Source: Trypanosoma brucei (Eukaryota). Taken from it: a stretch of DNA of 64,000 nt. Shown here piece after piece: positions 28,838-60,156 of the stretch. Location of the stretch: the NCBI GenBank assembly GCA_000002445.1, contig CM000207.1, positions 2,336,001 through 2,400,000 of the forward strand, written 5' to 3'. The notes beneath the pieces are model-generated. The model saw only the letters and a program-made list of their open reading frames with translations. It did not search any database and was not told where the DNA came from. The position numbers and the translations under genes were made by a program. Position 1 is the first letter of the stretch. The number at the start of each line of letters is the position of its first letter.

Positions 28838-31688
28838 GTACCGCATTGGTGGGTTTGGAAAGTGAAAAAATAAAATAAAAAAATGCTACAAATAATAAAT
28901 GAATGAGGATGAAATGTGAAAGATGAAGGTGAAGTTGATGTGAATGTGAAAGATGTATCTTCTCCTTTTTCTTTTTCTTTTTCTTTATTTTTATCTTTCC
29001 TTTTGGTTTGGTTTTTAGTCTCTGTTGATGTTGATGTTGATTTTGTTTTTTGTTTTGTTTTTTTTTTCGTTTTGTGCTGTCCTTGTATTTACTTACTTCT
29101 CATCTGTTCGTGTAGTTTTCGGTTATTGCTGTTCTTGGACGCGTCGTGTGTTGCTCTGATTTCTTTTTTTTTCTTTTTTTTTTTCTATCATTCTCTCTTG
29201 TGTGTTTTGGTACCTGATTTGCTTCTTCTTCAGGCACTTTACCCTAGTTCCGCACTATCATCACTGCTGTTATTATTATTATTATTACTATTATTACTAT
29301 TACTGTTGCTGTTGCTATCATTTCCTCGTCTTGAATGCAACTTCATCTTCTTTCAGTCTTTTTTTCCATGCCTTTTTGATTTATTTGATTTATTTTATTT
29401 TGTTTTGTTTTTGCTGCAGGACACCCGAAGAAGGCATCGCAGCGACGTACCGTTTTGACAAGTATCAGTTACACAAAATATATTTAGATTAGGAATTTTA
29501 TAATTTAAAGCAATAAAGGGGGGGGGAAAAGAAAAAAAAAAGAGAACAGAAATCCACAAACACAAACACAAACAGAAGCCATATTTAACAAAATGGCACG
29601 AAGGTTCCTTCAATATGGATTTATGTTATTATTATTATTATTATCATTATTATTTTTTTAAATAAAACAAAATTAAAATAAAAGGAAAAGACATAACTGA
29701 TGGCATTTCCCGCATCAAGCAACTTTAAAAGGCAGCGAGAAAGAGATGATGGGGGTGGAGAGGGGAAAATTCAGCTTACTGACTTCAATTTATTGACTTT
29801 TTTTAAAATTTTTTCTCCTTTCTTTTACATTTATATTTATATTTGCATTTTCCCTGTGTTTAAGTGTAAGTTTATTTTAATACAGAGAGACGTATTGGAT
29901 TAACCCGCGGAAGTTAAGAATTGGGGTACACACCGCTTGTATAAATTAAAAAAAAAAACAACAACAACGAAAAACAAAAAAAAAAATATATATATGGTTT
30001 CCTTTTATGATATTGATATTATTTCCAGTAGTAATAACACTGTGAAATTATTAAGCGGCAGCAAATGTTAGCGAGTTTTGCGGAGGATTCCCACCACCAC
30101 CACCACCACCTCAAGAGGAAAAAAAAACGTGGCCCCTACGCTTCTCATAAACTCTCAATAGTGTGAATGCGTGCCTCATTATTATTATTATTATTTATTT
30201 ATTTATTTTTATTTTTATAATAGCTATAATTATAATTATGATTGTTTGTTTTTTCCTTTGATGTGTGTTTACTTTTTGATAATTTTAAATAATTACCGCT
30301 ACCGTAGCGGGACGGAGTGGGATGAATTGTATTCCTCTTTAAGTACTCTAGTAATTTAGTTATTGCATAAATTTGCTCTTTTTTTTATTTTTGTTTTTTT
30401 TTTCAAAAAAAAAAAAGGATGTGTGAACTCAAAACAGATTTGGTGTTAGAATTTGAGTTAGTGGTATCGGTTTCCAGACACTATAATTACTGATGTCGCA
30501 TTAAAGAGAGAAATAGAGAAATAAAGGCGCAAAAAAGCAGAGGGAAAAGGGAAACAATAAATAAATGAATATAATAAATAATTAAAAAAACGCTACACAG
30601 TACATGAGACTGCATGCACTCAATGCGGTAAAGCAGTGAATAAAATTAAATATGTGTAAAAACTGACGTGACAATATACAACTACTACAAAGTTGGAGAG
30701 GTTTAGTTGCGGTTATTTTATTTTATTTATTTTTTTGTCTTCATTTCTTCTTTATTTTTGGCTTCTTGTGATATGCTGATGGAAAATGTAATAATAATAT
30801 TTTAACAAATGGGTAAATAAATGATGTATTAATATTTACATTAAGACGAGAAGAGGAACATAAACATAAAGTCCACCGACAGCAGTAGTGGAAGCCGCAT
30901 GCGAGACATTAATGAAGGTAACAAAATAACAACAACATGAACATTTATCCATCGCATGTCCTACCATTTACGCTGCCGAATAATGCAAGATCATGTATCG
31001 CACTCGAAAGAACAAAATAAAAAAAAAACACACAAACGACGACACGCAAAAAAATATATATATATATATATATATATCGAGAACAACCACAATAAATAAT
31101 GCATTGGTGTCCAAAAAAAAAGGGGGGGAAAGGAAAACGAAGTTTTAAAAATAAACACGTAAAACAGATATGAGTGGCGTAAGTGACAATCAATTTTCCA
31201 CACCTTACACAGTGTTAAGATTAAAAAAAAAACAAAAAAAAATAAGGAATGGTAAACATCTCCCCATTGTAAATTAAATCGACCGCATTCATCAGCGGTG
31301 TTAATGCAGATAATAATTGACAAAACAAAAAGTCACGCAACAAACTAAACAACAACCGTTAATCACACAATTTAACAAATATCAGCGCAATACTGATCAT
31401 AAAGAATAAACAATAATAAAAGCAACAAAAATATTTTAAAAAATACATAATAACAACAACCTACATGAAACTGATAGCACAAATTGACTTGAATTCCAAT
31501 AACTCTATTTCATTGAAGCGGTGCAACAACGAGATAATTCCCTTGCGCTACTCATATTGATACTATTGTTGTTGCTATTCTTTGCATTTCCCACTGTTGA
31601 TTCCATTAATCTCTCCTAATTCTCATGACAAGAATCCACAACAAGACAGCAGACACAAGCTTCGATACCATCCGAATAAATAACAATT

Positions 31689-32579
31689 ATGAGCATCACT
31701 TTTAATAATTTATGGCTACTTTTGACAGTGTTATGCACTGCTAGAATTCGTGCTGATTTCATTGGGGAGGAGTGTCTCGACATAGTCTCTTATCCATCAG
31801 CTGATGTGGTACGCATTTTGTGCCATGTTGCAGGCCAGCTTCGAGGCCTATCACAGACAGTAAGTTCTGCTGTGGAAACTGCCGCTGCTGCTTCGAGTAA
31901 AGCATTTGAAGCAAAGGTACAAGCAGAGGAAGCTGTGGAACTTGCCGAGTCGAGAGGCCTAAACGTTACGAAAGCGAAGGAAGCTGCTGTGAGAGCAACA
32001 CACGCTGCTGAAGCTGCGGCTTTGGCTGCAAGTAACTTGGCTTTTGCCGCTGCAAATATTGCTGCGGTGCCGTGGTCACAACCAATCAGTGATTCCATGT
32101 TGCATAAACTCGCACTATGCGACCACGTCGACGAGTATGTGCGAGAGGCAGCAAAAAAGTGCACAAAGAAAGCGAAGAACGTGACGGCACAATCTCTCAA
32201 TGAGGTCCTCAAAGCGTTTGAGAAGCTGTTCAGTGAAGTAAATGCCTTGCAATCCTTACGGCATAATATTGCTGAGTTCCACAAAGACCTGAAATCGTTA
32301 GAGGATCACGTTGAAGACATTGTCCGTGCACAAAAAAATGCGGAAGATGCAGCTGCAGAGACAAATAAAATAGCAGCGCCTGATCATGAGGTAGGAGGTA
32401 ACAAAGAAGAAACACCAAGTCAACAGCCAGACACAAATCAAGATCAACAGGCAAATGAGAAACCTGAGGCAAATCAGACAGCCGGCACAAATACGGGACC
32501 ACTTGGAAATTCCGTTGCTTCACCTGAAGGGTCAGTGCTGCTACTGATGGCTGGATTGTTTCTCGGTTCTGTACTGTAA
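31689..32579 (+). CDS. BARP: BARP-like alanine-rich surface protein, copy 1 (296 aa)
   Basis: Signal peptide MSITFNNLWLLLTVLCTARIRA; conserved core SSKAFEAKVQAEEAVELAESRGLNVTKAKEAAVRAT; GPI signal NSVASPEGSVLLLMAGLFLGSVL. It carries a unique extension (APDHEVGGNKEETPSQQPDTNQDQQANEKPEANQTAGTNTGPLG) before the GPI signal. Confidence 0.85.
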   Translation: MSITFNNLWLLLTVLCTARIRADFIGEECLDIVSYPSADVVRILCHVAGQLRGLSQTVSSAVETAAAASSKAFEAKVQAEEAVELAESRGLNVTKAKEAAVRATHAAEAAALAASNLAFAAANIAAVPWSQPISDSMLHKLALCDHVDEYVREAAKKCTKKAKNVTAQSLNEVLKAFEKLFSEVNALQSLRHNIAEFHKDLKSLEDHVEDIVRAQKNAEDAAAETNKIAAPDHEVGGNKEETPSQQPDTNQDQQANEKPEANQTAGTNTGPLGNSVASPEGSVLLLMAGLFLGSVL

Positions 32580-33589
32580 GAGGTTGCAACTCCATGAATT
32601 GTGATCCCAACCATTCCACTTGTCTCCACACAGTTATGTGCACATACAGGTGAGGCAACAAACATCCTTTGATATTAACCTTATTTTCTATCAGTGGCTA
32701 TTAATATTGTTATTTTATTTTGTTTCATTTATACTTTCACTTTTATTCTTTTTAACTTTACTTTACTTTTCCTTTACTGTGTTATCTTTCGAATATCTGT
32801 TCCAACTTTTATCCTTCATTTTTATAACTGATTTTCTAGTGTGTTTATTGCCCTACTTTTAGTTGTATTTTTTCCTTTACCACCTTTGTTTTTTCATTAT
32901 TTTATTCATGTAAAGCACTGAGGTGATTGCGTGTGAGCATGGCCACCTATGCGTTACCATTGTAAAACCGTTTTGCTAAAATCTATCATTCCTACGCATC
33001 CATAATGTCCTATTGTATGCGTAAAGCTAACTGATTCTGAGGGTTTTTATTTTATCATGAAGCAAAACTGTTACACTGTGGGTTTACCTTCACATATCTC
33101 TCTCCCATTACTCATTACACTTATTTTATGTTGTATTCTCTCCCTTTTTATTTCATATCTCTATATTTTATGTTACTGTCAGTATGTTGTATCGTAATAG
33201 TGTAGGATACCCTAAATGCTCAATACATGTGCTCTTACTGATTCGATCAGATATTGATATTATCATGTCTAATGAAATGACTATTGGAAGTTTGGGTGTG
33301 TGCTATTGCATTGCCTCTCTGCTTTGTAATTATGATATTTGATTTCCACTGTCACTTAGAATTGTATTTAGTAGGGAGTGGGGACAGTTCCATGCTGTGA
33401 TGTGTGCAGTGTGCTTAAATGATGAGCTGATTGACTGTAATGGTGTCACTACTCATATTGATACTATTGTTGTTGCTATTCTTTGCATTTCCCACTGTTG
33501 ATTCCATTAATCTCTCCTAATTCTCATGACAAGAATCCACTACAAGACAGCAGACACAAGTTTCGATACCATCCGAATAAATAACAATT

Positions 33590-34372
33590 ATGAGCATCAC
33601 TTTTCATAACTTATGGCTACTTTTAACAGTGTTATGCACCGCAGGTATTCGTGCTGACGCAAGTAAGGAGGAGTGTCCGGATAAGGGATCTTATCCGGCA
33701 GCCGAGGACGTACTTGTATTGTGTCGTGTGGCGGAACAACTTCGAGGGTTACCGGATACAGTGAGTTCTGCTCTTGTTAATGCCGCTACTGCTTCGAGTA
33801 AAGCATTTGAAGCAAAGGTACAAGCAGAGGAAGCTGTGGAACTTGCCGAGTCGAAAGGCCTAAACGTTACGAAAGCGAAGGAAGCTGCTGTGAGAGCAAC
33901 ACTCGCTGCTGAAGCTGCGGCTACGGCTGCAAGTAATGTGGAAATTAACGCTGCAAATATTGCTGCGGTGCCGTGGCTTGAACGAAGACAAAATGTGGGT
34001 TGGCAGAAGCTTGCGAAGTGTATAGACTTAGATATGGACATGCGGGAAGCAGCAAGGGTGTGTAGAAGGGCAGCAGACAACGTGACAGCCCAATCCCTCA
34101 CTGCGGCGCTGAAGGATTTGGAGAAGGTTTATACTGATGTGAGTACTAGAGAAGCCTTACGGAAGGAAACCGTTGAGTTCCATAAAGAGCTCGCGTCTTT
34201 AGAGGAGCATGTCGAAGAGGCTGTCCGTGCACAAAAACGGGCTGAGGATGCAGCTGCATATGCGAATCAAACAGTCGGTACAAATACGGGACCAGTTGTG
34301 AATTCCGTTGCATCACCTGAAGGGTCAGTGCTGCTACTGATAGCTGGACTGTTTCTCGGTTCTGTACTGTAA
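33590..34372 (+). CDS. BARP: BARP-like alanine-rich surface protein, copy 2 (260 aa)
   Basis: Same signal peptide, core and GPI signal. N-terminal variable segment is type DASKEECPDKGSYPAAEDVLVLC. Confidence 0.85.
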   Translation: MSITFHNLWLLLTVLCTAGIRADASKEECPDKGSYPAAEDVLVLCRVAEQLRGLPDTVSSALVNAATASSKAFEAKVQAEEAVELAESKGLNVTKAKEAAVRATLAAEAAATAASNVEINAANIAAVPWLERRQNVGWQKLAKCIDLDMDMREAARVCRRAADNVTAQSLTAALKDLEKVYTDVSTREALRKETVEFHKELASLEEHVEEAVRAQKRAEDAAAYANQTVGTNTGPVVNSVASPEGSVLLLIAGLFLGSVL

Positions 34373-35384
34373 GAGGTTGCAACTCTATAAATTGTGATGC
34401 CAACCATTCCTCTTGTCTCCACACAGTTATGTGCACATACAAGTGAGGCAGCAAACATTCTTTGATATTAACCTTATTTTCTATCAGTGGCTATTAATAT
34501 TGTTATTTTATTTTGTTTCATTTATACTTTCACTTTTATTCTTTTTACTTTACTTTACTTTTCCTTTTATTATTTTATCTTTCGAACAGTTGTTGTAACT
34601 TTTATCCTTCATTTTTATAACTGATTTTCTAGTGTGTTTATTGCCCTACTTTTTAGCTATATTTTTTTCCTTTATTACCTTTGTTTTTTCATTATTTTAT
34701 TCATGTAATGCACTGAGGTGATTGCGTGTAAGCATGGCCACCTATGTGTTACCATCGTAAGAGCGTGTTACTAAAATCTATCATTCCTACGCATCCATAA
34801 TGTCCTATTGTATGCGTAAAGCTAACTGATTCTGAGGGTTTTTATTTTATCATGAAGCAAAACTGTTACACTGTGAGTTTACCTTCACATATCTCTCTCC
34901 CATTACTCATTACACTTATTTTATGTTGTATTCTCTCCCTTTTTATTTCATATCTCTATATTTTATGTTACTGTCAGTATGTTGTATCGTAATAGTGTAG
35001 GATACCCTAAATGCTCAATACATGTGCTCTTACTGATTCCATCAGATATTGATATTATCGTGTCTAATGAAATGACTATTGGAAGTTTGGGTGTGTGCTA
35101 TTGCATTCCCTCTCTGCTTTGTAATTATGTTATTTGATTTCCACTGTCACTTAGAATTGTATTTAGTAGGGAGTGGGGACAGTTCCATGCTGTGATGTGT
35201 GCAGTGTGCTTAAATGATGAGCTGATTGACTGTAATGGTGTCACTACTCATATTGATACTATTGTTATTGCTATTCTTTGTATTTCCCACTGTTGATTCC
35301 AATAATCTCTCCTAATTCTCATGACAAGAATCCACTACAAGACAGCAGACACAAGTTTCGATACCATCCAAATAAATAACAATT

Positions 35385-36167
35385 ATGAGCATCACTTTTC
35401 ATAATTTATGGCTACTTTTGACAGTGTTATGCACCGCAGGTGTTCGTGCTCATCATGGCTGGACCAATTGCTACCCTGCGGGAAACAGTCCACCAGTAGA
35501 AGAGATTCGTGCGTCATGCGAAGTGGCTCACCAACTTCGAGGCCTATCACAAACAGTAACATCTGCTGTGGAAACTTCCGCTGCTGCTTCGAGTAAAGCA
35601 TTTGAAGCAAAGGTACAAGCAGAGGAAGCTGTGGAACTTGCCGAGTCAAAAGGCCTAAACGTTACGAAAGCGAAGGAAGCTGCTGTGAGAGCAACACTCG
35701 CTGCTGAAGCTGCGGCTACGGCTGCAAGTAATGTGGAAATTAACGCTGCAAATATTGCTGCGGTGCCGTGGCTTGAACGAAGACAAAATACAGGTTGGGA
35801 GGTGCTTACGAAATGCATTAACTTAGACGATGATATAAAAAAAATGGCATCAAAGTGTAAAAGTGCAGCAGAAGTTGTAACAGCCGAATCGATCAGTGCG
35901 GCGTTAAACGATTTGGGGAAGACATTTATAAATGAGAAGACTCGAGAAGCCTTACGGAAGGAAAGCGTTGAGTTCCATAAAGAGCTCGCGTCTTTAGAGG
36001 AACATGTCGAAGAGGCTGTCCGTGCACAAAAACGGGCTGAGGATGCAGCTGCAGATGCGAATCAAACAGCCGGTACAAATACGGGACCAGTTGTGAATTC
36101 CGTTGCATCACCTGAAGGGTCAGTGCTGCTACTGATGGCTGGACTGTTTCTCGGTTCTGTACTGTAA
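35385..36167 (+). CDS. BARP: BARP-like alanine-rich surface protein, copy 3 (260 aa)
   Basis: N-terminal variable segment HHGWTNCYPAGNSPPVEEIRASC; conserved core and GPI signal. Confidence 0.85.
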   Translation: MSITFHNLWLLLTVLCTAGVRAHHGWTNCYPAGNSPPVEEIRASCEVAHQLRGLSQTVTSAVETSAAASSKAFEAKVQAEEAVELAESKGLNVTKAKEAAVRATLAAEAAATAASNVEINAANIAAVPWLERRQNTGWEVLTKCINLDDDIKKMASKCKSAAEVVTAESISAALNDLGKTFINEKTREALRKESVEFHKELASLEEHVEEAVRAQKRAEDAAADANQTAGTNTGPVVNSVASPEGSVLLLMAGLFLGSVL

Positions 36168-37183
36168 GAGGTTGCAACTCTATAAATTGTGATGCCAACC
36201 ATTCCACTTGTCTCCACACAGTTATATGCACATACAAGTGAGGCAGCAAACATCCTTTCCTATTAACCTTATTTTCTATCAGTGGCTATTAATATTGTTA
36301 TTTTATTTTGTTTCATTTATACTTTCATTTTTATTATTCTTTTTACTTTACTTTACTTTTCCTTTTATTATTTTATCTTTCGAACAGTTGTTGTAACTTT
36401 TATCCTTCATTTTTATAGCTGTGCTACTAAAGTGTGTTTATAGTCCTTCTTTTTAGTTGTATTTTTTCCTTTATTACCTTTGTTTTTTCATTATTTTATT
36501 CATGTAATGCACTGAGGTGATTGCGTGTGAGCATGACCACCTATGCGTTACCATTGTAAAACCGTGTTACTAAAACGTATCATTTCTACGCATCCATAAT
36601 GTCCTATTGTATGCGTAAAGCTAACTGATTCTGAGGGTTTTTATTTTATCATGAAGCAAAACTGTTACACTGTGAGTTTACCTTCACATATCTCTCTCCC
36701 ATTACTCATTACACTTATTTTATGTTGTATTCTCTCCCTTTTTATTTCATATCTCTATATTTTATGTTACTGTCAGTATGTTGTGTCGTAATAGTGTAGA
36801 ATACTCTAAACGCTCAATACATGTGCTCTTACTGATTCCATCAGATATTGATATTATCGTGTCTAATGAAATGACTATTGGAAGTTTGGGTGTGTGCTAT
36901 TGCATTGCCTCTCTGCTTTGTAATTATGATATTTGATTTCCACTGTCACTTAGAATTGTATTTAGTAGGGAGTGGGGACAGTTCCATGCTGTGATGTGTG
37001 CAGTGTGCTTAAATGATGAGCTGATTGACTGTAATGGTGTCACTACTCATATTGATACTATTAATGTTGCTATTCCCTGTATTTCCTACTGTTGATTCCA
37101 TTAATCTCTCCTAATTCTCATGACAAGAATCCACTACAAGACAGCAGACACAAGTTTCGATACCATCCGAATAAATAACAATT

Positions 37184-38056
37184 ATGAGCATCACTTTTCA
37201 TAACTTATGGCTACTTTTGACAGTGTTATGCACTGCAGGTATTCGTGCGCACGGTGACTGGAGAGATTGCTATGCTGGTAGGAAACCCCCACCGGCAGGA
37301 CACGTACGTGTGGTGTGCAGTTTGGCGGAACAACTTCGAGGTTTACCGGATACAATAAGTTCTGCTCTTGTTACTGCCGCTGCTGCTTCGAGTAAGGCAT
37401 TTGAAGCAAAGGTACAAGCAGAGGAAGCTGTGGAACTTGCCGAGTCGAGAGGCCTAAACGTTACGAAAGCGAAGGAAGCTGCTGTGAGAGCAACACTTGC
37501 TGCTGAAGCTGCGGCTACAGCTGCAAGTAATGTGGAAATTGACGCTGCAAATGTCACTTCCTCCCGTCTGGCTCGTCGCAATCCTAACACAGGCTTTGAG
37601 AAAGTTGCTATGTGCGAAAACTTGGACAAGGATTTGCGGGAGGCGGCAGCAAAGTGCACAAAGAAAGCGGAGAACGTGACAACCCAATCACTCAGTGAGA
37701 CACTTCATAGGTTGGAGAATCTGTACACTAATATGAGTGCTCTTGAATCCTTACGGGTCGAACATGTTGAAATTGAACGCTTTTTTGAGATGCTCGAAGA
37801 ACACGTGGAGGAGGCTGTCCGTGCACAAAGACAAGCTGAGGAAGCAGCTGCCGAGGCAATTAAAATAGTAGCTGCTGATGAGGAGGTGAGAGGATACAAA
37901 AAGGAAGAAATTAATCAAGTAGCAGGGACAAAAAAAGGTCATGAGGCAAATCAAACAACCGGCACAAATACGGGACCAGTTGTGAATTCCGTTGCATCAC
38001 CTGAAGGGTCAGTGCTGCTACTGATGGCTGGACTGTTTCTCGGTTCTGTACTGTAA
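37184..38056 (+). CDS. BARP: BARP-like alanine-rich surface protein, copy 4 (290 aa)
   Basis: N-terminal variable segment HGDWRDCYAGRKPPPAGHVRVVC. It also carries the C-terminal insertion EEAAAEAIKIVAADEEVRGYKKEEINQVAGTKKGHEANQTTGTNTGPVVN, shared with copy 5. Confidence 0.85.
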   Translation: MSITFHNLWLLLTVLCTAGIRAHGDWRDCYAGRKPPPAGHVRVVCSLAEQLRGLPDTISSALVTAAAASSKAFEAKVQAEEAVELAESRGLNVTKAKEAAVRATLAAEAAATAASNVEIDAANVTSSRLARRNPNTGFEKVAMCENLDKDLREAAAKCTKKAENVTTQSLSETLHRLENLYTNMSALESLRVEHVEIERFFEMLEEHVEEAVRAQRQAEEAAAEAIKIVAADEEVRGYKKEEINQVAGTKKGHEANQTTGTNTGPVVNSVASPEGSVLLLMAGLFLGSVL

Positions 38057-39074
38057 GAGGTTGCAACTCTATAAATTGTGATGCCAACCATTCCACTTGT
38101 CTCCACACAGTTATATGCACATACAAGTGAGGCAGCAAACATCCTTTCCTATTAACCTTATTTTCTATCAGTGGCTATTAATATTGTTATTTTATTTTGT
38201 TTCATTTATACTTTCATTTTTATTATTCTTTTTACCTTACTTTACTTTTCCTTTTCCTTTATAATGTTATATTCCGAACATGTTCCAACTTTTATCCTTC
38301 ATTTTTATAACTGATTTTCTAGTGTATTTATTTTCTTATTTTTAGCTATATTTTTTTCCTTTATTATCTTTGTTTTTTCATTATTTTATTCATGTAATGC
38401 ACTGAGGTGATTGCGTGTGAGCATGGCCACCTATGCGTTACAACTGTAAAATTGTTTTACTGAAACGTATCATTCCTACGCATCCATAATGTCCTATTGT
38501 ATGCGTAAAGCTAACTGATTCTGAGGGTTTTTTATTTTATCATGAAGCAAAACTGTTACACTGTGGGTTTACCTTCACATATCTCTCTCCCATTACTCAT
38601 TACACTTATTTTATGTTGTATTCTCTCCCTTTTTATTTCATATCTCTATATTTTATGTTACTGTCAGTATGTTGTATCGTAATAGTGTAGGATACCCTAA
38701 ATGCTCAATACATGTGCTCTTACTGATTCCATCAGATATTGATATTATCGTGTCTAATGAAATGACTATTGGAAGTTTGGGTGTGTGCTATTGCATTGCC
38801 TCTCTGCTTTGTAATTATGTTATTTGATTTCCACTGTCACTTAGAATTGTATTTAGTAGGGAGTGGGGACAGTTCCATGCTGTGATGTGTGCAGTGTGCT
38901 TAAATGACGAGCTGATTGACTGTAATGGTGTCACTACTCATATTGATACTATTAATGTTGCTATTCCCTGTATTTCCCACTGTTGATTCCATTAATCTCT
39001 CCTAATTCTCATGACAAGAATCCACTACAAGACAGCAGACACAAGCTTCGATACCATCCAAATTAATAACAATT

Positions 39075-39947
39075 ATGAGCATCACTTTTAATAATTTATG
39101 GCTACTTTTGACAGTGTTATGCACCGCAGGTATTCGTGCTCATCATGTCTGGAATGATTGCTTTGCCGATGGAAGCTATCCACCACTAGAAGGTATACCC
39201 GCATTGTGTGGTGTGGCGGAACAACTTCGAGGTTTACCGGATACAATAAGTTCTGCTCTTGTTAATGTCGCTACTGCTTCGAGTAAAGCATTTGAAGCAA
39301 AGGTACAAGCAGAGGAAGCTGTGGAACTTGCCGAGTCGAAAGGCCTAAACGTTACGAAAGCGAAGGAAGCTGCTGTGAGAGCAACACTCGCTGCTGAAGC
39401 TGCGGCTACGGCTGCAAGTAATGTGGAAATTAACGCTGCAAATATTGCTGCGGTGCCGTGGTCACAAAGGAGACAGGATGCGGGGTTGCAAAAAGTTGCA
39501 CTATGCGACAATGTGGACAAGGATGTACGAGAGGCGGCAGCAAAGTGCACAAAGAAAGCGGAGAACGTGACAGCTGAATCTCTCCGTGCGGCACTAGAAG
39601 CGTTGGAGAATCTTGTTACTGATGTTAAATTCCAAGAAAATTTACGGAAGGAAGATGTCGAATTTCACACGGAGCTGAAATCATTAGAGGATCACGTGGA
39701 GGAGGCTGTCCGTGCACAAAGACAAGCTGAGGAAGCAGCTGCCGAGGCAATTAAAATAGTAGCTGCTGATGAGGAGGTGAGAGGATACAAAAAGGAAGAA
39801 ATTAATCAAGTAGCAGGGACAAAAAAAGGTCATGAGGCAAATCAAACAACCGGCACAAATACGGGACCAGTTGTGAATTCCGTTGCATCACCTGAAGGGT
39901 CAGTGCTGCTACTGATGGCTGGACTGTTTCTCGGTTCTGTACTGTAA
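39075..39947 (+). CDS. BARP: BARP-like alanine-rich surface protein, copy 5 (290 aa)
   Basis: N-terminal variable segment HHVWNDCFADGSYPPLEGIPALC. Its C-terminal 60 aa are identical to copy 4. Confidence 0.85.
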   Translation: MSITFNNLWLLLTVLCTAGIRAHHVWNDCFADGSYPPLEGIPALCGVAEQLRGLPDTISSALVNVATASSKAFEAKVQAEEAVELAESKGLNVTKAKEAAVRATLAAEAAATAASNVEINAANIAAVPWSQRRQDAGLQKVALCDNVDKDVREAAAKCTKKAENVTAESLRAALEALENLVTDVKFQENLRKEDVEFHTELKSLEDHVEEAVRAQRQAEEAAAEAIKIVAADEEVRGYKKEEINQVAGTKKGHEANQTTGTNTGPVVNSVASPEGSVLLLMAGLFLGSVL

Positions 39948-40961
39948 GAGGTTGCAACTCCATGAATTGTGATCCCAACCATTCCACTTCTCTCCACACA
40001 GTTATGTGCACATACAAGTGAGGCAGCAAACATCCTTTCATATTAACCTTATTTTCTATCAGTGGCTATTAATATTGCTATTTTATTTTGTTTCATTTAT
40101 ACTTTCACTTTTATTATTCTTTTTAACCTTACTTTACTTTTCCTTTTATTATTTTATCTTTCGAACAGTTGTTGTAGCTTTTATCCTTCATTTTTATAAC
40201 TGATTTTCTAGTGTATTTATTTTCTTATTTTTAGCTATATTTTTTTCCTTTATTATCTTTGTTTTTTCATTATTTTATTCATGTAATGCGCTGAGGTGAT
40301 TGCGTGTGAGCATGGCCACCTATGCGTTACCATTGTAAAACCGTGTTACTAAAACGTATCATTCCTACGCATCCATAATGTCCTATTGTATGCGTAAAGC
40401 TAACTGATTCTGAGGGGTTTTATTTTATTATGAAGCAAAACTGTTACACTGTGAGTTTACCTTCACATATCTCTCTCCCATTACTCATTACACTTATTTT
40501 ATGTTGTATTCTCTCCCTTTTTATTTATATCTCTATATTTTATGTTACTGTCAGTATGTTGTATCGTAATAGTGTAGAATACCCTAAATGCTCAATACAT
40601 GTGCTCTTACTGATTCCATCAGATATTGATATTATCGTGTCTAATGAAATGACTATTGGAAGTTTGGATGTGTGCTATTGCATTGCCTCTCTGCTTTGTA
40701 ATTATGATATTTGATTTCCACTGTCACTTAGAATTGTATTTAGTAGGGAGCGGGGACAGTTCCATGCTGTGATGTGTGCAGTGTGCTTAAATGATGAACT
40801 GATTGACTGTAATGGTGTCACTACTCATATTGATACTATTAATGTTGCTATTCCCTGTATTTCCTACTGTTGATTCCATTAATCTCTCCTAATTCTCATG
40901 ACAAGAATCCACTACAAGACAGCAGACACAAGCTTCGATACCATCCAAATTAATAACAATT

Positions 40962-41729
40962 ATGAGCATCACTTTTCATAACTTATGGCTACTTTTAACA
41001 GTGTTATGCACCGCAGGTATTCGTGCTGACGCAAGTAAGGAGGAGTGTCCGGATAAGGGATCTTATCCGGCAGCCGAGGACGTACTTGTATTGTGTCGTG
41101 TGGCGGAACAACTTCGAGGGTTACCGGATACAGTGAGTTCTGCTCTTGTTAATGCCGCTACTGCTTCGAGTAAAGCATTTGAAGCAAAGGTACAAGCAGA
41201 GGAAGCTGTGGAACTTGCCGAGTCAAAAGGCCTAAACGTTACGAAAGCGAAGGAAGCTGCTGTGAGAGCAACACTCGCTGCTGAAGCTGCGGCTACGGCT
41301 GTGAGCTATGCGAATGCGCACGGCACGAAAGTTGGATCGATGACAGAAATACTTTGGGAGGCGGATGAAGAGTTGCGTGAACTTGTAGTGTGTAAGAGAA
41401 TGGATGAAGAAACAATAAAAGCTGCTGCAGAGTGTACGGGCACAGCGGAAGTTGTAACAGCCCAATCACTCAGTGAGGCACTAGAGGCATTGGCTAATCT
41501 ACACTATGGTGATGAAAACGTTGCTGAAACCCTACGACGGAAAGATGTTGTGTTCCACAAAGAGCTGAAATCACTCGAAGGTTACGTGGAGGAGGCTGTT
41601 CATGCACAAAAACAGGCTGAGGATGCAGCTGCAGATGCCAATCAAGTAGCTACTGGAAATTCCGTCGCATCGCCTGAAAAGTCAGTGCTGCTACTGATGG
41701 CTGGATTGTTTCTCAGTTCTGTACTGTAA
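40962..41729 (+). CDS. BARP: BARP-like alanine-rich surface protein, copy 6 (255 aa)
   Basis: Central variable block VSYANAHGTKVGSMTEILWEADEELRELVVCKRMDEETIKAAAECTGTAEVV. Nearly identical to copy 8. GPI signal variant LFLSSVL. Confidence 0.85.
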   Translation: MSITFHNLWLLLTVLCTAGIRADASKEECPDKGSYPAAEDVLVLCRVAEQLRGLPDTVSSALVNAATASSKAFEAKVQAEEAVELAESKGLNVTKAKEAAVRATLAAEAAATAVSYANAHGTKVGSMTEILWEADEELRELVVCKRMDEETIKAAAECTGTAEVVTAQSLSEALEALANLHYGDENVAETLRRKDVVFHKELKSLEGYVEEAVHAQKQAEDAAADANQVATGNSVASPEKSVLLLMAGLFLSSVL

Positions 41730-42742
41730 GAGGTTGCAACTCTATAAATTGTGATGCCAACCATTCCACTTGTCTCCACACAGTTATGTGCACATACAAG
41801 TGGGGCAGCAAACATCCTTTCATATTAGTATTATTTTCTATCAGTGGCTATTAATATTGTTATTTTATTTTGTTTCCTTTCTACTTTCACTTTTATTATT
41901 CTTTTTAACCTTACTTTACTTTTCCTTTTATTATTTTATCTTTCGAACAGTTGTTGTAACTTTTATCCTTCATTTTTATAACTGATTTTCTAGTGTGTCT
42001 GTTGTCCTTCTTTTTAGTTGTATTTTTTCCTTTATTACCTTATTTTTCATTATTTTATTCATGTATTGCACTGAGGTGATTGCGTGTGAGCATGGCCACC
42101 TATGCGTTACAACTGTAAAATTGTTTTACTGAAACGTATCATTCCTACGCATCCATAATGTCCTATTGTATGCGTAAAGCTAACTGATTCTGAGGGTTTT
42201 TATTTTATCATGAAGCAAAAATGTTACACTGTGGGTTTACCTTCACATATCTCTCTCCCATTACTCATTACACTTATTTTATGTTGTATTCTCTCCCTTT
42301 TTATTTCATATCTCTATATTTTATGTTACTGTCAGTAGGTTGTATCGTAATAGTGTAGGATACCCTAAATGCTCAATACATGTGCTCTTACTGATTCCAT
42401 CAGATATTGATATTATCGTGTCTAATGAAATGACTATTGGAAGTTTGGGTGTGTGCTATTGCATTGCCTCTCTGCTTTGTAATTATGATATTTGATTTCC
42501 ACTGTCACTTAGAATTGTATTTAGTAGGGAGTGGGGACAGTTCCATGCTGTGATGTGTGCAGTGTGCTTAAATGATGAGCTGATTGACTGTAATGGTGTC
42601 ACTACTCATATTGATACTATTGTTGTTGCTATTCTTTGCATTTCCCACTGTTGATTCCATTAATCTCTCCTAATTCTCATGACAAGAATCCACTACAAGA
42701 CAGCAGACACAAGTTTCGATACCATCCGAATAAATAACAATT

Positions 42743-43579
42743 ATGAGCATCACTTTTAATAATTTATGGCTACTTTTGACAGTGTTATGCACTGCAGGTA
42801 TTCGTGCGCACGGTGACTGGAGAGATTGCTATGCTGCTAGGAAACCCCCACCGGCAGGACACGTACGTGTGGTGTGCAATTTGGCGGAACAACTTCGAGG
42901 GTTACCGGATACAGTAAGTTCTGCTCTTGTTAATGCCGCTGCTGCTTCGAGTAAAGCATTTGAAGCAAAGGTACAAGCAGAGGAAGCTGTGGAACTTGCC
43001 GAGTCGAGAGGCCTAAACGTTACGAAAGCGAAGGAAGCTGCTGTGAGAGCAACACTCGCTGCTGAAGCTGCGGCTACGGCTGCAAGTAATGTGGAAATTA
43101 ACGCTGCAAATGTCACTTCCTCGCGTTTGGCTCGTCGCAACCCTAACACAGGCTTTGAGAAAATTGCTATGTGCGAAAACTTGGACGAGGATGTACGAGA
43201 GGCAGCAGTAAAGTGTACAAAGAAAGCGGAGAACGTGACAACCCAATCTCTCAATGAAGCACTTCATAGGTTGGAGAATCTGTACACTAATATGAGTGCT
43301 CTTGAATCCTTACGGGTTGAACATGTTGAAATTGAACGCTTTTTTGAGATGCTCGAAGAACACGTAGAGGAGGCTGTGAGTGCACAAAGACAAGCTGAGG
43401 ATGCAGCTGCCGAGGCAATTAAAATAGCAGCTGCTGATGAGAAGGTGAGAGGATACAAAAAGGAAGAAATAAATCAAACAGCCGGCCCAAATACGGGACC
43501 AGTTGTGAATTCCGTTGCATCACCTGAAGGGTCGGTGCTGCTACTGATGGCTGGACTGTTTCTCGGTTCTGTACTGTAA
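42743..43579 (+). CDS. BARP: BARP-like alanine-rich surface protein, copy 7 (278 aa)
   Basis: Shares its N-terminal variable segment (HGDWRDCYAARKPPPAGHVRVVC) and central block (NVTSSRLARRNPNTGFEK...EHVEIERFFEMLEEHVEEAV) with copy 4. The C-terminus is shorter. Confidence 0.85.
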   Translation: MSITFNNLWLLLTVLCTAGIRAHGDWRDCYAARKPPPAGHVRVVCNLAEQLRGLPDTVSSALVNAAAASSKAFEAKVQAEEAVELAESRGLNVTKAKEAAVRATLAAEAAATAASNVEINAANVTSSRLARRNPNTGFEKIAMCENLDEDVREAAVKCTKKAENVTTQSLNEALHRLENLYTNMSALESLRVEHVEIERFFEMLEEHVEEAVSAQRQAEDAAAEAIKIAAADEKVRGYKKEEINQTAGPNTGPVVNSVASPEGSVLLLMAGLFLGSVL

Positions 43580-44594
43580 GAGGTTGCAACTCCATGAATT
43601 GTGATCCCAACCATTCCACTTGTCTCCACACAGTTATGTGCACATACAAGTGAGGCAGCAAACATCCTTTGATATTAGTATTATTTTCTATCAGTGGCTA
43701 TTAATATTGTTATTTTATTTTGTTTCATTTATACTTTCACTTTTATTATTCTTTTTACTTTACTTTACTTTTCCTTTACTGTGTTATCTTTCGAATATCT
43801 GTTCCAACTTTTATCCTTCATTTTTATAACTGTGCAGCTGAGGTGTGTCTATTTTCCTATTTTCATTTTTATTTTTTTCCTTTACTAACTTTGTTTTTTC
43901 ATTATTTTATTCATGTAATGCACTGAGGTGATTGCGTGTAAGCATGGCCACCTATGCGTTACCATCGTAAGAGCGTGTTACTAAAATCTATCATTCCTAC
44001 GCATCCATAATGTCCTATTGTATGCGTAAAGCTAACTGATTCTGAGGGTTTTTATTTTATCATGAAGCAAAACTGTTACACTGTGGGTTTACCTTCACAT
44101 ATCTCTCTCCCATTACTCATTACACTTATTTTATGTTGTATTCTCTCCCTTTTTATTTCATATCTCTATATTTTATGTTACTGTCAGTAGGTTGTATCGT
44201 AATAGTGTAGGATACCCTAAATACTCAATACATGTGCTCTTACTGATTCGATCAGATATTGATATTATCGTGTCTAATGAAATGACTATTGGAAGTTTGG
44301 ATGTGTGCTATTGCATTGCCTCTCTGCTTTGTAATTATGATATTTGATTTCCACTGTCACTTAGAATTGTATTTAGTAGGGAGTAGGGACAGTTCCATGC
44401 TGTGATGTGTGCAGTGTGCTTAAATGATGAGCTGATTGACTGTAATGGTGTCACTACTCATATTGATACTATTGTTGTTGCTATTCCCTGTATTTCCTAC
44501 TGTTGATTCCATTAATCTCTCCTAATTCTCATGACAAGAATCCACTACAAGACAGCAGACACAAGTTTCGATACCATCCAAATTAATAACAATT

Positions 44595-45362
44595 ATGAGC
44601 ATCACTTTTCATAACTTATGGCTACTTTTAACAGTGTTATGCACCGCAGGTATTCGTGCTGACGCAAGTAAGGAGGAGTGTCCGGATAAGGGCTCTTATC
44701 CGGCAGCCGAGGACGTACTTGTATTGTGTCACGTTGCGGAGCAACTTCGAGGGTTACCGGATACAGTGAGTTCTGCTCTTGTTACTGCTGCTGCTGCTTC
44801 GAGTAAAGCATTTGAAGCAAAGGTACAAGCAGAGGAAGCTGTGGAACTTGCCGAGTCGAGAGGCCTAAACGTTACGAAAGCGAAGGAAGCTGCTGTGAGA
44901 GCAACACTCGCTGCTGAAGCTGCGGCTACGGCTGTGAGCTATGCGAATGCGCACGGCACGAAAGTTGGATCGATGACAGAAATACTTTGGGAGGCGGATG
45001 AAGAGTTGCGTGAACTTGTAGTGTGTAAGAGAATGGATGAAGAAACAATAAAAGCTGCTGCAGAGTGTACGGGCACAGCGGAAGTTGTAACAGCCCAATC
45101 ACTCAGTGAGGCACTAGAGGCATTGGCTAATCTACACTATGGTGATGAAAACGTTGCTGAAACCCTACGACGGAAAGATGTTGTGTTCCACAAAGAGCTG
45201 AAATCACTCGAAGGTTACGTGGAGGAGGCTGTTCATGCACAAAAACAGGCTGAGGATGCAGCTGCAGATGCCAATCAAGTAGCTACTGGAAATTCCGTCG
45301 CATCACCTGAAAAGTCAGTGCTGCTACTGATGGCTGGACTGTTTCTCGGTTCTGTACTGTAA
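44595..45362 (+). CDS. BARP: BARP-like alanine-rich surface protein, copy 8 (255 aa)
   Basis: Near-duplicate of copy 6, differing at a handful of residues (for example CHVAEQ vs CRVAEQ, LVTAAAASS vs LVNAATASS). Confidence 0.85.
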   Translation: MSITFHNLWLLLTVLCTAGIRADASKEECPDKGSYPAAEDVLVLCHVAEQLRGLPDTVSSALVTAAAASSKAFEAKVQAEEAVELAESRGLNVTKAKEAAVRATLAAEAAATAVSYANAHGTKVGSMTEILWEADEELRELVVCKRMDEETIKAAAECTGTAEVVTAQSLSEALEALANLHYGDENVAETLRRKDVVFHKELKSLEGYVEEAVHAQKQAEDAAADANQVATGNSVASPEKSVLLLMAGLFLGSVL

Positions 45363-46381
45363 GAGGTTGCAACTCCATGAATTGTGATCCCAACCATTCC
45401 ACTTGTCTCCACACAGTTATGTGCACATACAAGTGAGGCAGCAAACATCCTTTCACATTAGTATTATTTTCTATCAGTGGCTATTAATATTGTTATTTTA
45501 TTTTGTTTCATTTATACTTTCACTTTTATTATTCTTTTTACTTTACTTTACTTTTCCTTTACTGTGTTATCTTTCGAATATCTGTTCCAACTTTTATCCT
45601 TCATTTTTATAACTGTGCAGCTGAGGTGTGTCTATTTTCCTATTTTCATTTTTATTTTTTTCCTTTACCACCTTTGTTTTTTCATTATTTTATTCATGTA
45701 ATGCACTGAGGTGATTGCGTGTAAGCATGGCCACCTATGCGTTACAATAGTGACACTTTTTTTTTAATCAAAATCTATCATTCCTACGCATCCATAATGT
45801 CCTATTGTATGCGTAAAGCTAACTGATTCTGAGGGGTTTTATTTTATCATGAAGCAAAACTGTTACACTGTGGGTTTACCTTCACATATCTCTCTCCCAT
45901 TACTCATTACACTTATTTTATGTTGTATTCTCTCCCTTTTTATTTCATATCTCTATATTTTATGTTACTGTCAGTAGGTTGTATCGTAATAGTGTAGGAT
46001 ACCCTAAATGCTCAATACATGTGCTCTTACTGGTTCCATCAGATATTGATATTATCGTGTCTAATGAAATGACTATTGGAAGTTTGGATGTGTGCTATTG
46101 CATTGCCTCTCTGCTTTGTAATTATGATATTTGATTTCCACTGTCACTTAGAATTGTATTTAGTAGGGAGTGGGGACAGTTCCATGCTGTGATGTGTGCA
46201 GTGTGCTTAAATGATGAGCTGATTGACTGTAATGGTGTCACTACTCATATTGATACTATTAATGTTGCTATTCTTTGTATTTCCCACTGTTGATTCCAAT
46301 AATCTCTCCTAATTCTCATGACAAGAATCCACTACAAGACAGCAGACACAAGTTTCGATACCATCCAAATTAATAACAATT

Positions 46382-60010: not shown

Positions 60011-60047
60011 CCCTGCTTTTATTTCTTTTCTCCTTGTTTCTTGTCGT
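60011..60047 (+). promoter_or_regulatory. Polypyrimidine tract upstream of adenylate cyclase ORF (candidate splice-acceptor signal)
   Basis: cctgcttttatttcttttctccttgtttcttgtcgttg lies about 110 nt upstream of the ATG at 60157, followed by AG dinucleotides. Confidence 0.4.
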
Positions 60048-60156
60048 TGAATAGATTTCTGCAAGTTACCGTTAATATTCGGTGACTGAGGTGTTCAAGA
60101 ACTGCCATTTTTAAAGGAAAAGGAAAGGAAAACGTCGGTGCACAAATATAAACAAC

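What the first reader, a model, noticed from the sequence alone, without database searches (positions are those of the whole stretch)
32580..33589. Inter-CDS spacer (3'UTR, intergenic and 5'UTR) is more conserved than the coding sequence across all 14 units
The roughly 1000 bp between each stop and the next ATG is almost base-for-base identical from unit to unit, with only a few SNPs or indels per kb: ...gaggttgcaactccatgaattgtgatcccaaccattccacttgtctccacacagttatgtgcacatacaagtgaggcagcaaacatcc...gcactgaggtgattgcgtgtgagcatggccacctatgcgttacc...cagacacaagtttcgataccatccaaattaataacaattATG. The proteins meanwhile differ by whole blocks. In trypanosomes gene expression is controlled post-transcriptionally through UTRs, so this points to strong purifying selection or concerted evolution on cis-regulatory RNA elements, such as stage-specific stability or translation elements and the splice-acceptor/polyadenylation spacing, rather than neutral homogenisation alone. 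It contains U-rich ARE-like stretches (cattattttattcatgta), GC-richer islands (gaggtgattgcgtgtgagcatggccacctatgcgttacc) that could form structured elements, and a polypyrimidine tract plus AG about 60 nt before each ATG. The span given is the first spacer; the same applies to every unit.
Basis: partly seen in the sequence, partly recalled or inferred. Interest (0 to 1): 0.6.

Follow-up and report, generated by a model that had tools for sequence, protein, structure and literature searches.

The report
BARP gene-array spacers homogenised by gene conversion
The near-identical 1-kb spacers lie between the 14 tandem BARP surface-protein genes of Trypanosoma brucei, and they look alike because the copies keep overwriting each other (concerted evolution), a pattern already published for this array in 2007, not because of unusually strong selection on regulatory RNA.

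Summary
The window is T. b. brucei TREU927 chromosome 9, and the units are the 14 tandem BARP genes.

**Observation.** It is real but overstated. Twelve of the 13 internal spacers are 94-98% identical (18-61 substitutions per kb). The CDSs are about 77% identical (pS 0.34).

Conservation within the spacer is uneven:
- The 3'UTR up to the published poly(A) site is the least conserved part (pi 6.7%).
- The 370 nt beyond that site are nearly invariant (pi 1.4%).

**Comparison with T. b. gambiense and T. b. equiperdum.**
- Spacers, the signal-peptide block and the GPI-signal block cluster by genome, not by position.
- Ten sites differ between genomes across the whole array, five of them in the "invariant" zone.
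- That zone's consensus diverged 2.9% between genomes, against 0.8% for single-copy flanking non-coding DNA.
- The variable CDS blocks keep one-to-one orthology across subspecies.
- 54% of informative site pairs fail the four-gamete test.

**Interpretation.** This is concerted evolution by gene conversion, with the variable cassettes escaping it. I found no Rfam hit, no excess folding stability, no conserved small ORF and no conserved motif.

Jackson (2007) reported the same contrast for this array and gave the same explanation. The finding is ordinary and already known.

The parts
31548..57027 (+). Whole BARP tandem array: 5' processing module, 14 CDSs, 13 internal spacers and the terminal 3' module
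   Evidence: Gene 10 is 100% identical to 'BARP protein, T. b. brucei TREU927' with PF16731 GARP. The boundaries come from a consensus-spacer blast. The same boundaries are seen in T. b. gambiense and T. b. equiperdum.
31548..31688 (+). Curtailed spacer upstream of gene 1. Only the last 141 nt of the repeat are present (second pyrimidine tract, AG and predicted 5'UTR), 96.5% identical to the consensus
   Evidence: The Kolev 2010 novel transcript Tb9.NT.89 ends at window 31515, just upstream.
31689..32579 (+). BARP CDS 1 (296 aa). The other CDSs are at 33590-34372, 35385-36167, 37184-38056, 39075-39947, 40962-41729, 42743-43579, 44595-45362, 46382-47362 (divergent copy 9), 48322-49104, 50118-50900, 51914-52678, 53689-54474 and 55487-56269
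32580..32684 (+). Spacer 1, zone I: the first ~105 nt after the stop codon; pi 5.6% among 927 copies
32685..32995 (+). Spacer 1, zone II: T-rich and the most variable part (pi 8.5%), with block-wise shared haplotypes and indels.
33059..33080 (+). Position in spacer 1 equivalent to the published poly(A) sites of BARP gene 2. That gene's predominant 3'UTR is 482 nt (window 34854) and its averaged 3'UTR is 503 nt
   Evidence: Kolev 2010 Table S13, Tb09.244.2520. The window offset of 2,336,000 is fixed by two independent genes. Mapped to spacer 1.
33087..33182 (+). First pyrimidine-rich tract, ending in AG at 33181-33182, about 100-125 nt downstream of the mapped poly(A) site. It is a candidate internal splice acceptor that would set the poly(A) site (inferred)
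   Evidence: The coupling of polyadenylation to downstream trans-splicing is established trypanosome biology.
32996..33448 (+). Near-invariant zone (zone III plus the ~100-nt segment found only in internal spacers). pi is 1.0-1.5% within 927, but 3.0-3.4% pairwise between 927 and the other subspecies
33449..33589 (+). 5' module: second pyrimidine tract (33464-33531), AG at 33532-33533 and a predicted 56-nt 5'UTR; pi 3.4%
47363..47535 (+). Start of spacer 9, unrelated to the other spacers. It follows the divergent C-terminus of copy 9
56270..57027 (+). Terminal 3' module after gene 14, homologous to consensus 1-769. It is identical in the first 113 nt, 81% identical with indels in the T-rich zone, and 99.7% identical over alignment columns 441-780, within a stretch from ~345 to ~789 that has only three differences. 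Homology then stops abruptly.

Best explanation
The window holds the 14-gene BARP (brucei alanine-rich protein) tandem array of T. brucei chromosome 9.

Each inter-CDS spacer is an ordinary trypanosome intergenic region. It contains, in order:
- a ~480-500-nt 3'UTR;
- a pyrimidine tract with an AG;
- about 270 nt of unknown transcript status;
- a second pyrimidine tract with an AG;
- a 56-nt 5'UTR.

The spacers resemble each other because of concerted evolution. Repeated gene conversion, and probably unequal crossing-over, between neighbouring repeats keeps overwriting three things: the spacers, the two ends of the CDS, and the central alanine-rich block.

Two internal CDS blocks (aa 24-66 and aa 114-222) are old, strongly diverged cassettes that escape this homogenisation. 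They are too different to recombine efficiently, and each isoform is kept by purifying selection. The result is a homogenised framework carrying conserved-by-descent variable cassettes.

Shown here: homogenisation by genome, mosaicism, and orthology of the cassettes. Inferred: the molecular mechanism (conversion tracts stopping at the divergent blocks) and the RNA-processing roles of the pyrimidine tracts.
For: **Identity of the locus.**
- BARP TREU927 at 100% identity, PF16731.
- The flanking P-type ATPase, ArfGAP and adenylate cyclase match published gene lists and coordinates.

**Concerted evolution of the spacers.**
- Every 927 spacer's nearest relatives are 927 paralogues, never a gambiense or equiperdum spacer.
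- Mean within-genome distances are 0.043, 0.030 and 0.027, against 0.054-0.055 between 927 and the others.
- At ten sites, at least 80% of 927 copies carry one base and at least 80% of gambiense+equiperdum copies another. These include a cluster of five changes within 24 nt in the 'invariant' zone.
- The signal-peptide and C-terminal CDS blocks also cluster by genome. For example, LFLGSVL is found in 12 of 13 canonical 927 copies, against LFLSS.. in nearly all gambiense/equiperdum copies.

**No extra constraint.**
- Consensus divergence of zone III between 927 and gambiense is 10/349.
- Single-copy non-coding flanks differ at 39/4772 (Fisher p=0.0014).
- The whole spacer consensus differs at 40/1008.

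**Cassettes escape homogenisation.**
- Variable blocks keep 1:1 orthology across subspecies. The nearest 927 copy lies at 0.006-0.077; the second-nearest is usually at 0.2-0.36, but lies close (0.03-0.14) where 927 carries near-duplicate cassettes (b5/b10, b4/b7, b2/b6/b8); the median to all 927 copies is 0.28-0.43.
- Orthologue pN/pS is 0.16-0.47.

**Recombination.**
- 75 informative sites; 54% of site pairs fail the four-gamete test.
- Neighbouring sites are more compatible than permuted ones (0 of 1000 permutations reached the observed value).
- There is a weak distance-with-separation trend (Mantel p=0.05).

**Literature.**
- Jackson 2007 (PMC1855330) reports for this array a CDS distance of 0.335 against 0.073 (5'UTR) and 0.038 (3'UTR).
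- It found 10 conversion events, only three of them inside the CDS, and argues for conversion over purifying selection.
- The MISP surface-protein array shows >99.7% UTR/intergenic conservation (PMC10089363).
Against: - Orthologous cassette pairs show synonymous divergence of 0.07-0.11, higher than the 0.03 between-genome distance of zone III. Against that yardstick some constraint on the spacer cannot be excluded. That pS may itself be inflated by patchy conversion from diverged paralogues.
- The terminal 3' module after gene 14 is 99.7% identical to the consensus beyond the T-rich zone. A pure edge-escape model would predict more decay there.
- Only two other genomes were compared. The gambiense assembly has gaps in the array, and both are close relatives of each other.
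- Tandem arrays are prone to mis-assembly, which could mimic mosaicism. Jackson 2007 checked breakpoints on single reads for most putative events across arrays; nothing on record is specific to the BARP array.
Confidence: 0.85

Rival explanations
1. Purifying selection on cis-regulatory RNA elements in the UTRs (stability or translation elements, processing-signal spacing) is the main reason the spacers are so alike.
For: - BARP mRNA is 100-200-fold stage-regulated inside a polycistron.
- The BARP ORF gives protein in procyclics when placed in the procyclin locus, so control must lie outside the ORF (PMC5568443).
- DRBD3 depletion changes BARP mRNA levels.
- Spacer divergence is below synonymous divergence of the conserved CDS blocks: 0.043 against pS 0.085-0.157.
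- It is also below that of orthologous cassettes, pS 0.07-0.11.
- One pair of the array-wide changes (G->C with U->G) keeps a small predicted hairpin at -6.3 kcal/mol in both versions.
Against: - Array-wide fixed differences show that substitutions are tolerated and then spread.
- The most invariant zone diverges between genomes 3.5 times faster than the flanking non-coding DNA.
- The mapped 3'UTR is the least conserved part of the spacer, pi 6.7% against 1.4% beyond the poly(A) site.
- There is no folding signal, no Rfam family and no conserved motif.
- BARP is absent from the RBP10-bound list as stored.
- The same pattern is seen in other arrays, including ones evolving neutrally.
Confidence: 0.08
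2. Simple recent duplication (birth-and-death): the units are young copies, and the spacers have simply not had time to diverge.
For: - Neighbouring spacers tend to be slightly more alike: spacers 10-13 at 97.5-98.2% and spacers 7/8 at 97.5%.
- Some CDS pairs are nearly identical; genes 6 and 8 have the same variable blocks.
Against: - Variable CDS blocks have pS 0.46-0.58 between paralogues, against 0.04 in the spacers next to them.
- The cassettes are shared one-to-one with gambiense and equiperdum, so the copies predate the subspecies split. The spacers attached to them nevertheless follow the genome.
Confidence: 0.03
3. The near-invariant ~450 nt (32996-33448 and its equivalents), mostly downstream of the mapped poly(A) site and carrying its own pyrimidine tract and AG, is a separate functional element. 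Candidates are an unannotated trans-spliced non-coding RNA, an alternative long 5'UTR, or a DNA-level element. This is not exclusive of concerted evolution.
For: - It has the lowest diversity of the whole unit (pi 1.0-1.5%), lower than the conserved coding blocks at 4-6%.
- A poly(A) site at 482-503 nt is followed about 100-125 nt later by an AG after a pyrimidine tract.
- The zone is retained at 99.7% identity in the terminal copy after gene 14.
Against: - There is no Rfam hit, no excess folding stability and no ORF kept intact across copies.
- Kolev 2010 lists no novel transcript inside the array. Repeats map poorly, so this is weak evidence.
- Between-genome divergence is above the flanking baseline.
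- The longest uninterrupted homology is also where conversion should be most efficient.
Confidence: 0.12
4. Assembly artefact: near-identical repeats were collapsed or cross-assembled, inflating identity and creating false mosaics.
For: - Tandem arrays are hard to assemble, and Jackson 2007 raises this concern.
- The gambiense array has N gaps and duplicated segments.
Against: - Three independent assemblies (927, DAL972, equiperdum without gaps) give the same zoned pattern and the same array boundaries.
- Jackson 2007 retrieved single reads spanning the breakpoint for most putative events across the arrays studied; this was not stated for the BARP array specifically.
- The copies carry many private differences; 39 of the variable sites are singletons.
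Confidence: 0.03

Closest known systems
Array Tb93 (BARP) in Jackson 2007, 'Tandem gene arrays in Trypanosoma brucei' (PMC1855330)
   Same: It is the same locus and the same observation: CDS distance 0.335 against 0.073 (5'UTR) and 0.038 (3'UTR). Ten gene-conversion events were found, mostly outside the CDS. The explanation is the same: conversion homogenises, and fast-diverging CDS parts escape.
   Different: This analysis adds four things: the zoning of the spacer, its relation to a mapped poly(A) site, the spacer-level comparison with gambiense and equiperdum, and the finding that the variable blocks keep orthology while the framework does not. Jackson's cross-species alignments left out the UTRs.
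MISP surface-protein array of T. brucei (PMC10089363)
   Same: It is a tandem, polycistronically transcribed array of salivary-gland-stage, GPI-anchored helical-bundle proteins, with >99.7% identical UTR and intergenic sequence.
   Different: MISP coding sequences are also highly conserved. BARP combines a homogenised framework with strongly diverged cassettes.
Classical concerted evolution of tandem repeats (rDNA, alpha-globins; invariant T. brucei tubulin, histone and HSP arrays)
   Same: Paralogues within a genome are more alike than orthologues between genomes. Variation is purged regardless of coding status (here).
   Different: Here it is partial. Only segments of the unit are homogenised, so the array is a mosaic of concerted and divergent blocks.
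Procyclin (EP/GPEET) 3'UTR regulatory elements
   Same: This is the reference case of stage-specific control of a trypanosome surface coat through 3'UTR elements (my own knowledge, not tested here).
   Different: No equivalent element was identified in the BARP spacer by sequence, motif or structure. No BARP UTR reporter study was found in the searchable library.

Membership tests
T. brucei BARP array (chromosome 9, Tb927.9.15510-15640) | Proteins are BARP/GARP family (PF16731) with a signal peptide and a GPI-type C-terminus | tested here: met
   PF16731 at E 1e-61 to 3e-72. Gene 10 is 100% identical to TREU927 BARP. The conserved N- and C-terminal hydrophobic ends are seen.
T. brucei BARP array (chromosome 9, Tb927.9.15510-15640) | 14 copies in head-to-tail tandem, flanked by the published neighbours | tested here: met
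   14 CDSs. [quoted passage not shown] The offset of 2,336,000 reproduces the published 3'UTR ends of Tb09.244.2570 (P-type ATPase) and Tb09.244.2520. The downstream 3729-nt adenylate cyclase matches Tb927.9.15660 ACP6.
Concerted evolution by gene conversion | Paralogues within a genome are more similar than positional orthologues between genomes | tested here: met
   Met for the spacers and for the signal-peptide and C-terminal blocks. Not met for variable blocks B and D, which keep orthology, so the concert is partial.
Concerted evolution by gene conversion | Lineage-specific substitutions spread to all or most copies | tested here: met
   Ten diagnostic sites; three (526, 539, 544) are 12/12 against 14/14, one (521) is 12/12 against 12/14, and the remaining six are 10-12 of 12 against 12-14 of 14.
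Concerted evolution by gene conversion | Mosaic, recombinant pattern among copies | tested here: met
   54% of informative site pairs show four gametes; 0 of 1000 permutations reached the observed PHI-like value. GENECONV events are reported by Jackson 2007.
Concerted evolution by gene conversion | Conversion tracts demonstrated directly, with donors and boundaries | not tested
   No GENECONV or RDP run here. I rely on the published 10 events.
Selectively constrained cis-regulatory RNA element | Between-lineage substitution rate below a neutral reference | tested here: inconclusive
   Not met against flanking non-coding DNA: 2.9% against 0.82%. The rate is lower than synonymous divergence of orthologous cassettes, 0.07-0.11, but that yardstick is unreliable.
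Selectively constrained cis-regulatory RNA element | Conserved structure: excess stability, covariation, or a known family | tested here: not met
   z-scores are -1.08, +0.63 and -0.22. Rfam gives 0 hits at E<=1. There is only one possible compensatory pair, in a weak hairpin.
Selectively constrained cis-regulatory RNA element | Confers stage-specific regulation on a reporter | not testable with these tools
   No BARP UTR reporter study was found. Urwyler 2007 is not held in the library.

The most novel reading that the evidence does not exclude
The ~450-nt near-invariant segment of each spacer lies mostly beyond the mapped BARP poly(A) site and has its own pyrimidine tract and AG. It could be a 14-fold repeated functional unit of its own, such as a trans-spliced non-coding RNA or an alternative long 5' leader used in epimastigotes. 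In that case its uniformity would be kept by selection in addition to gene conversion.
Probability: 0.1. Interest if true: 0.45.

Novelty: already known. Interest (0 to 1): 0.14.

Why it matters
It matters little as a discovery. The contrast between conserved UTRs and divergent BARP coding sequences, and its explanation by gene conversion, were published in 2007.

It is a useful caution. In tandem arrays, copy-to-copy identity of non-coding DNA measures homogenisation, not constraint, so it should not be used to nominate regulatory elements.

Two details found here are modestly useful to anyone dissecting BARP expression or isoform function. The real 3'UTR is the least conserved part of the spacer. 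The variable cassettes are stable orthologues across subspecies while their framework is overwritten.

Tried and rejected
- **Rfam.** An E-value scan of 31000-58000 on both strands gave nothing.
- **Folding.** The 'GC island' and two ~290-nt spacer segments fold no better than dinucleotide shuffles.
- **Hidden small ORFs.** The longest ATG ORFs (25-94 aa) change or vanish between copies.
- **Known motif scan.** I scanned for UA(U)6, PUF-type, AUUUA, UAU repeats and a cell-cycle element. Only one UA(U)6 occurs per 927 spacer. It is expected by chance in 44% of shuffles and absent from 7 of 14 gambiense/equiperdum spacers.
- **RBP10 target tables.** No BARP entry appears in the bound list as stored.
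- **Exact-protein look-up of gene 2.** Not on record. I reached the other genomes through a homology search instead.
- **Literature on BARP UTR function.**
  - Four full-text searches found no reporter study (one search failed on syntax).
  - Urwyler 2007 is not held.
  - The Siegel 2010 and Nilsson 2010 supplements are not held or have no BARP entry.
  - The stored parts of the Kolev 2010 splice-site tables lack BARP.
  - The Kolev novel-transcript list has none inside the array.
- **Edge-copy test.** I expected the terminal 3' copy to have decayed. It has not decayed outside the T-rich zone, so this test did not discriminate.
- **Simple recent duplication and assembly artefact.** Both considered and rejected; see the rival explanations.
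Full report
**What is there**

ORF listing and translation show 14 head-to-tail genes between 31689 and 56269. They encode 254-326-aa alanine-rich proteins that share an N-terminal signal peptide and, except copy 9, a C-terminal hydrophobic tail. They are separated by 13 spacers of 959-1019 nt.

Gene 10 is 100% identical to 'BARP protein [Trypanosoma brucei brucei TREU927]' on a 3.06-Mb contig, and the family is PF16731 (GARP).

Published poly(A) coordinates for two genes give the same offset of 2,336,000:
- the P-type ATPase Tb09.244.2570, window ORF 15271-18396, confirmed by Pfam;
- Tb09.244.2520.

The window is therefore chromosome 9 (v4) 2,336,001-2,400,000, and Tb09.244.2520 is BARP gene 2. 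[quoted passage not shown]

**Checking the observation**

The core claim holds. Twelve of the 13 internal spacers are 93.9-98.2% identical pairwise (mean 95.7%). The CDSs average 75-77% nucleotide identity, with pS 0.34-0.36 and pN 0.19-0.21.

'A few SNPs or indels per kb' is wrong by about an order of magnitude. Pairs differ by 18-61 substitutions per kb (mean 43) and by 1-8 indel events.

The contrast is also not simply 'spacer against CDS'. A 60-nt sliding window over the whole unit and the block analysis show a mosaic.

| Segment | Nucleotide identity or diversity |
|---|---|
| Signal-peptide block (aa 1-23) | 94% identity |
| Variable block (aa 24-66) | 66% identity, pS 0.46-0.48 |
| Alanine-rich block (aa 67-113) | 96% identity |
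| Variable block (aa 114-222) | 63-65% identity, pS 0.55-0.58 |
| C-terminal block | 96% identity |
| Spacer, first ~105 nt | pi 5.6% |
| Spacer, T-rich zone to ~nt 416 | pi 8.5%, with indels and block-wise shared haplotypes |
| Spacer, next ~450 nt | pi 1.0-1.5% |
| Spacer, last 141 nt | pi 3.3-3.4% |

Three exceptions apply:
- Spacer 9 follows the aberrant copy 9, and its first ~175 nt are unrelated to the others.
- Downstream of gene 14 the repeat continues for 758 nt and then stops.
- Upstream of gene 1 only the last 141 nt are present.

**Anatomy of the spacer**

Kolev et al. 2010 (Table S13) mapped the predominant poly(A) site of BARP gene 2 at 482 nt after the stop codon (window 34854). 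The averaged site is at 503 nt.

About 30 nt further on, a pyrimidine-rich tract begins. It ends in the first AG about 100-125 nt from the poly(A) site (34976-34977; 33181-33182 in spacer 1).

In trypanosomes polyadenylation is coupled to a downstream trans-splicing signal (established knowledge). This tract therefore probably sets the BARP 3' end. That step is an inference.

A second pyrimidine tract and an AG lie 56 nt before every ATG.

The terminal copies fit this layout. The last gene keeps the 3'UTR, the first tract and ~170 nt more. The first gene keeps only the second tract plus the 5'UTR.

As a result, the mapped 3'UTR is the least conserved part of the spacer (pi 6.7%). The best-conserved part lies beyond the poly(A) site (pi 1.4%).

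**Selection or homogenisation?**

I fetched the same array from T. b. gambiense DAL972 (L001 and L002, with gaps) and from T. b. equiperdum (L003, no gaps). The array boundaries are the same in all three.

*Clustering by genome.* All 13 TREU927 spacers have other TREU927 spacers as their nearest relatives. Mean within-genome distances are 0.043, 0.030 and 0.027. The distance between 927 and the others is 0.054-0.055.

*Array-wide fixed differences.* At ten sites nearly all copies in one genome carry one base and nearly all copies in the other genomes carry another. Five of these lie in the 'invariant' zone, and that zone holds a cluster of five changes within 24 nt around the poly(A) site (four of them diagnostic, the fifth a consensus difference). 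Substitutions there are therefore tolerated and then spread through the array.

*Rate of divergence.* The consensus of that zone differs between 927 and gambiense at 10 of 349 sites (2.9%). Single-copy non-coding DNA flanking the array differs at 39 of 4772 sites (0.82%; Fisher p=0.0014). The whole-spacer consensus differs at 40 of 1008 sites. So there is no sign that the spacer evolves slowly between lineages. It is only uniform within a genome.

*Behaviour of the CDS blocks.* The signal-peptide and C-terminal CDS blocks behave like the spacers. The two variable blocks do the opposite. Each gambiense or equiperdum gene has one clear TREU927 counterpart at 0.6-7.7% distance and lies at a median of 28-43% from the 927 copies overall; where 927 has near-duplicate cassettes, the second-nearest copy can be as close as 3-14%. 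Orthologue pN/pS is 0.16-0.47.

*Recombination within TREU927.* 54% of pairs of informative spacer sites fail the four-gamete test. Nearby sites are more compatible than permuted ones; 0 of 1000 permutations reached the observed value.

Taken together, this is partial concerted evolution. A framework is homogenised by gene conversion, and old cassettes embedded in it escape and are individually maintained.

**Searches for a functional RNA element**

- Rfam gave no hit at E<=1.
- The 'GC-rich island' and two further spacer segments fold no better than shuffled sequence (z -1.08, +0.63, -0.22).
- No small ORF is preserved across copies.
- The one RBP10-type UA(U)6 motif per spacer is expected by chance in 44% of shuffles. 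It is absent from 7 of 14 gambiense/equiperdum spacers.
- One pair of the array-wide substitutions keeps a small predicted hairpin at equal energy. This is a single weak case.

None of this says the BARP UTRs lack regulatory function. BARP mRNA is 100-200-fold stage-regulated, and the ORF is expressed in procyclics when moved to the procyclin locus (PMC5568443). DRBD3 depletion alters its level. The point is only that identity between units is not evidence for such elements.

**Comparison with what is known**

Jackson 2007 (PMC1855330) analysed this very array as 'Tb93'. The paper:
- reported a CDS distance of 0.335 against 0.073 and 0.038 for the 5' and 3' UTRs;
- found 10 conversion events, of which only three lay in the CDS;
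- argued that purifying selection is an unlikely cause because non-coding regions are often the more conserved part;
- proposed that fast-diverging gene parts escape conversion.

The MISP array shows >99.7% UTR/intergenic identity. The finding is therefore already known, and its accepted explanation is the one my tests support.

**Caveats**

- Only two comparison genomes were available. They are close to each other, and one has assembly gaps.
- The synonymous divergence of orthologous cassettes (0.07-0.11) exceeds the between-genome distance of the invariant zone (0.03). A modest constraint on that zone cannot be ruled out against that less reliable yardstick.
- The terminal 3' copy has not decayed outside the T-rich zone.
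- The poly(A) site was mapped in procyclic cells, where BARP is barely expressed. Splice-site data for BARP were not retrievable.

**Verdict**

This is an ordinary, published feature of trypanosome tandem arrays.

The only residual oddity is the ~450-nt near-invariant stretch beyond the poly(A) site. I give it about a 10% chance of being a functional unit of its own.

Noticed in passing
window 46382-47535: BARP copy 9 (326 aa) has a different, longer C-terminus without the canonical ...GSVLLLMAGLFLGSVL tail. The first ~175 nt of its 3' flank are unrelated to the other spacers. Homology resumes afterwards and resembles spacers 7 and 8. Pfam still calls it GARP (E 1e-61).
   Followed up: partly
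L003 2461-7708 (T. b. equiperdum); merged gambiense sequence near 20711: A ~5.2-kb insertion interrupts one spacer in equiperdum, with consensus positions 513-524 present on both sides (a 12-bp duplication). It carries an endonuclease/phosphatase-family ORF and further ORFs, so it looks like a retroelement. In gambiense a spacer fragment also starts at consensus position 513, after an assembly gap.
   Followed up: no
L003 1045-1539, 13651-13731, 15440-15970, 19026-19139: Four of the eight BARP starts in the T. b. equiperdum array run into early stops (164, 26, 176 and 37 aa). This could be pseudogenisation in a parasite that no longer passes through tsetse flies, or long-read indel errors. I did not distinguish the two.
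   Followed up: no
window 33059-33090 and equivalents (columns 521-544 of the 27-spacer alignment): Five substitutions within 24 nt, right at the mapped poly(A) site, separate nearly all TREU927 spacers from most or all gambiense/equiperdum spacers (12/12 against 12-14 of 14 at four sites, 11 of 14 at the fifth). It looks like a single multi-base event that was then spread through each array. Both versions fold into a small hairpin of -6.3 kcal/mol.
   Followed up: partly
window 29403-31515: The Kolev 2010 novel transcript Tb9.NT.89 (2112 nt, + strand) maps here. It ends 33 nt before the 141-nt 5' module of the first BARP gene. Tb9.NT.90 maps to 59226-59943, between the 346-aa gene and the adenylate cyclase.
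   Followed up: no
window 57447-58487: The 346-aa ORF just after the array has a signal-peptide-like start, an alanine-rich middle and a hydrophobic C-terminus, like a GPI-anchored surface protein. It has no significant Pfam match and is not a GARP-family hit. It is conserved in gambiense at 99.3% nucleotide identity.
   Followed up: partly
CDS ends, e.g. window 32559-32579 and 31689-31715: Genome-specific amino-acid states are shared by most paralogues. TREU927 has ...LFLGSVL and MSITF(H/N)N. Gambiense and equiperdum have ...LFLSS(V/L)L and mostly MSITFHS. This shows concerted evolution reaching into the coding ends.
   Followed up: yes
flanks: window 28838-31547 versus 58488-60100: Divergence between TREU927 and gambiense is uneven around the array. 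It is 1.0% plus many indels upstream, 1.4% just downstream, and 0.38% further downstream. Orthologous BARP cassettes differ by 2-8%. The array region may be a deep haplotype or a fast-evolving region.
   Followed up: no
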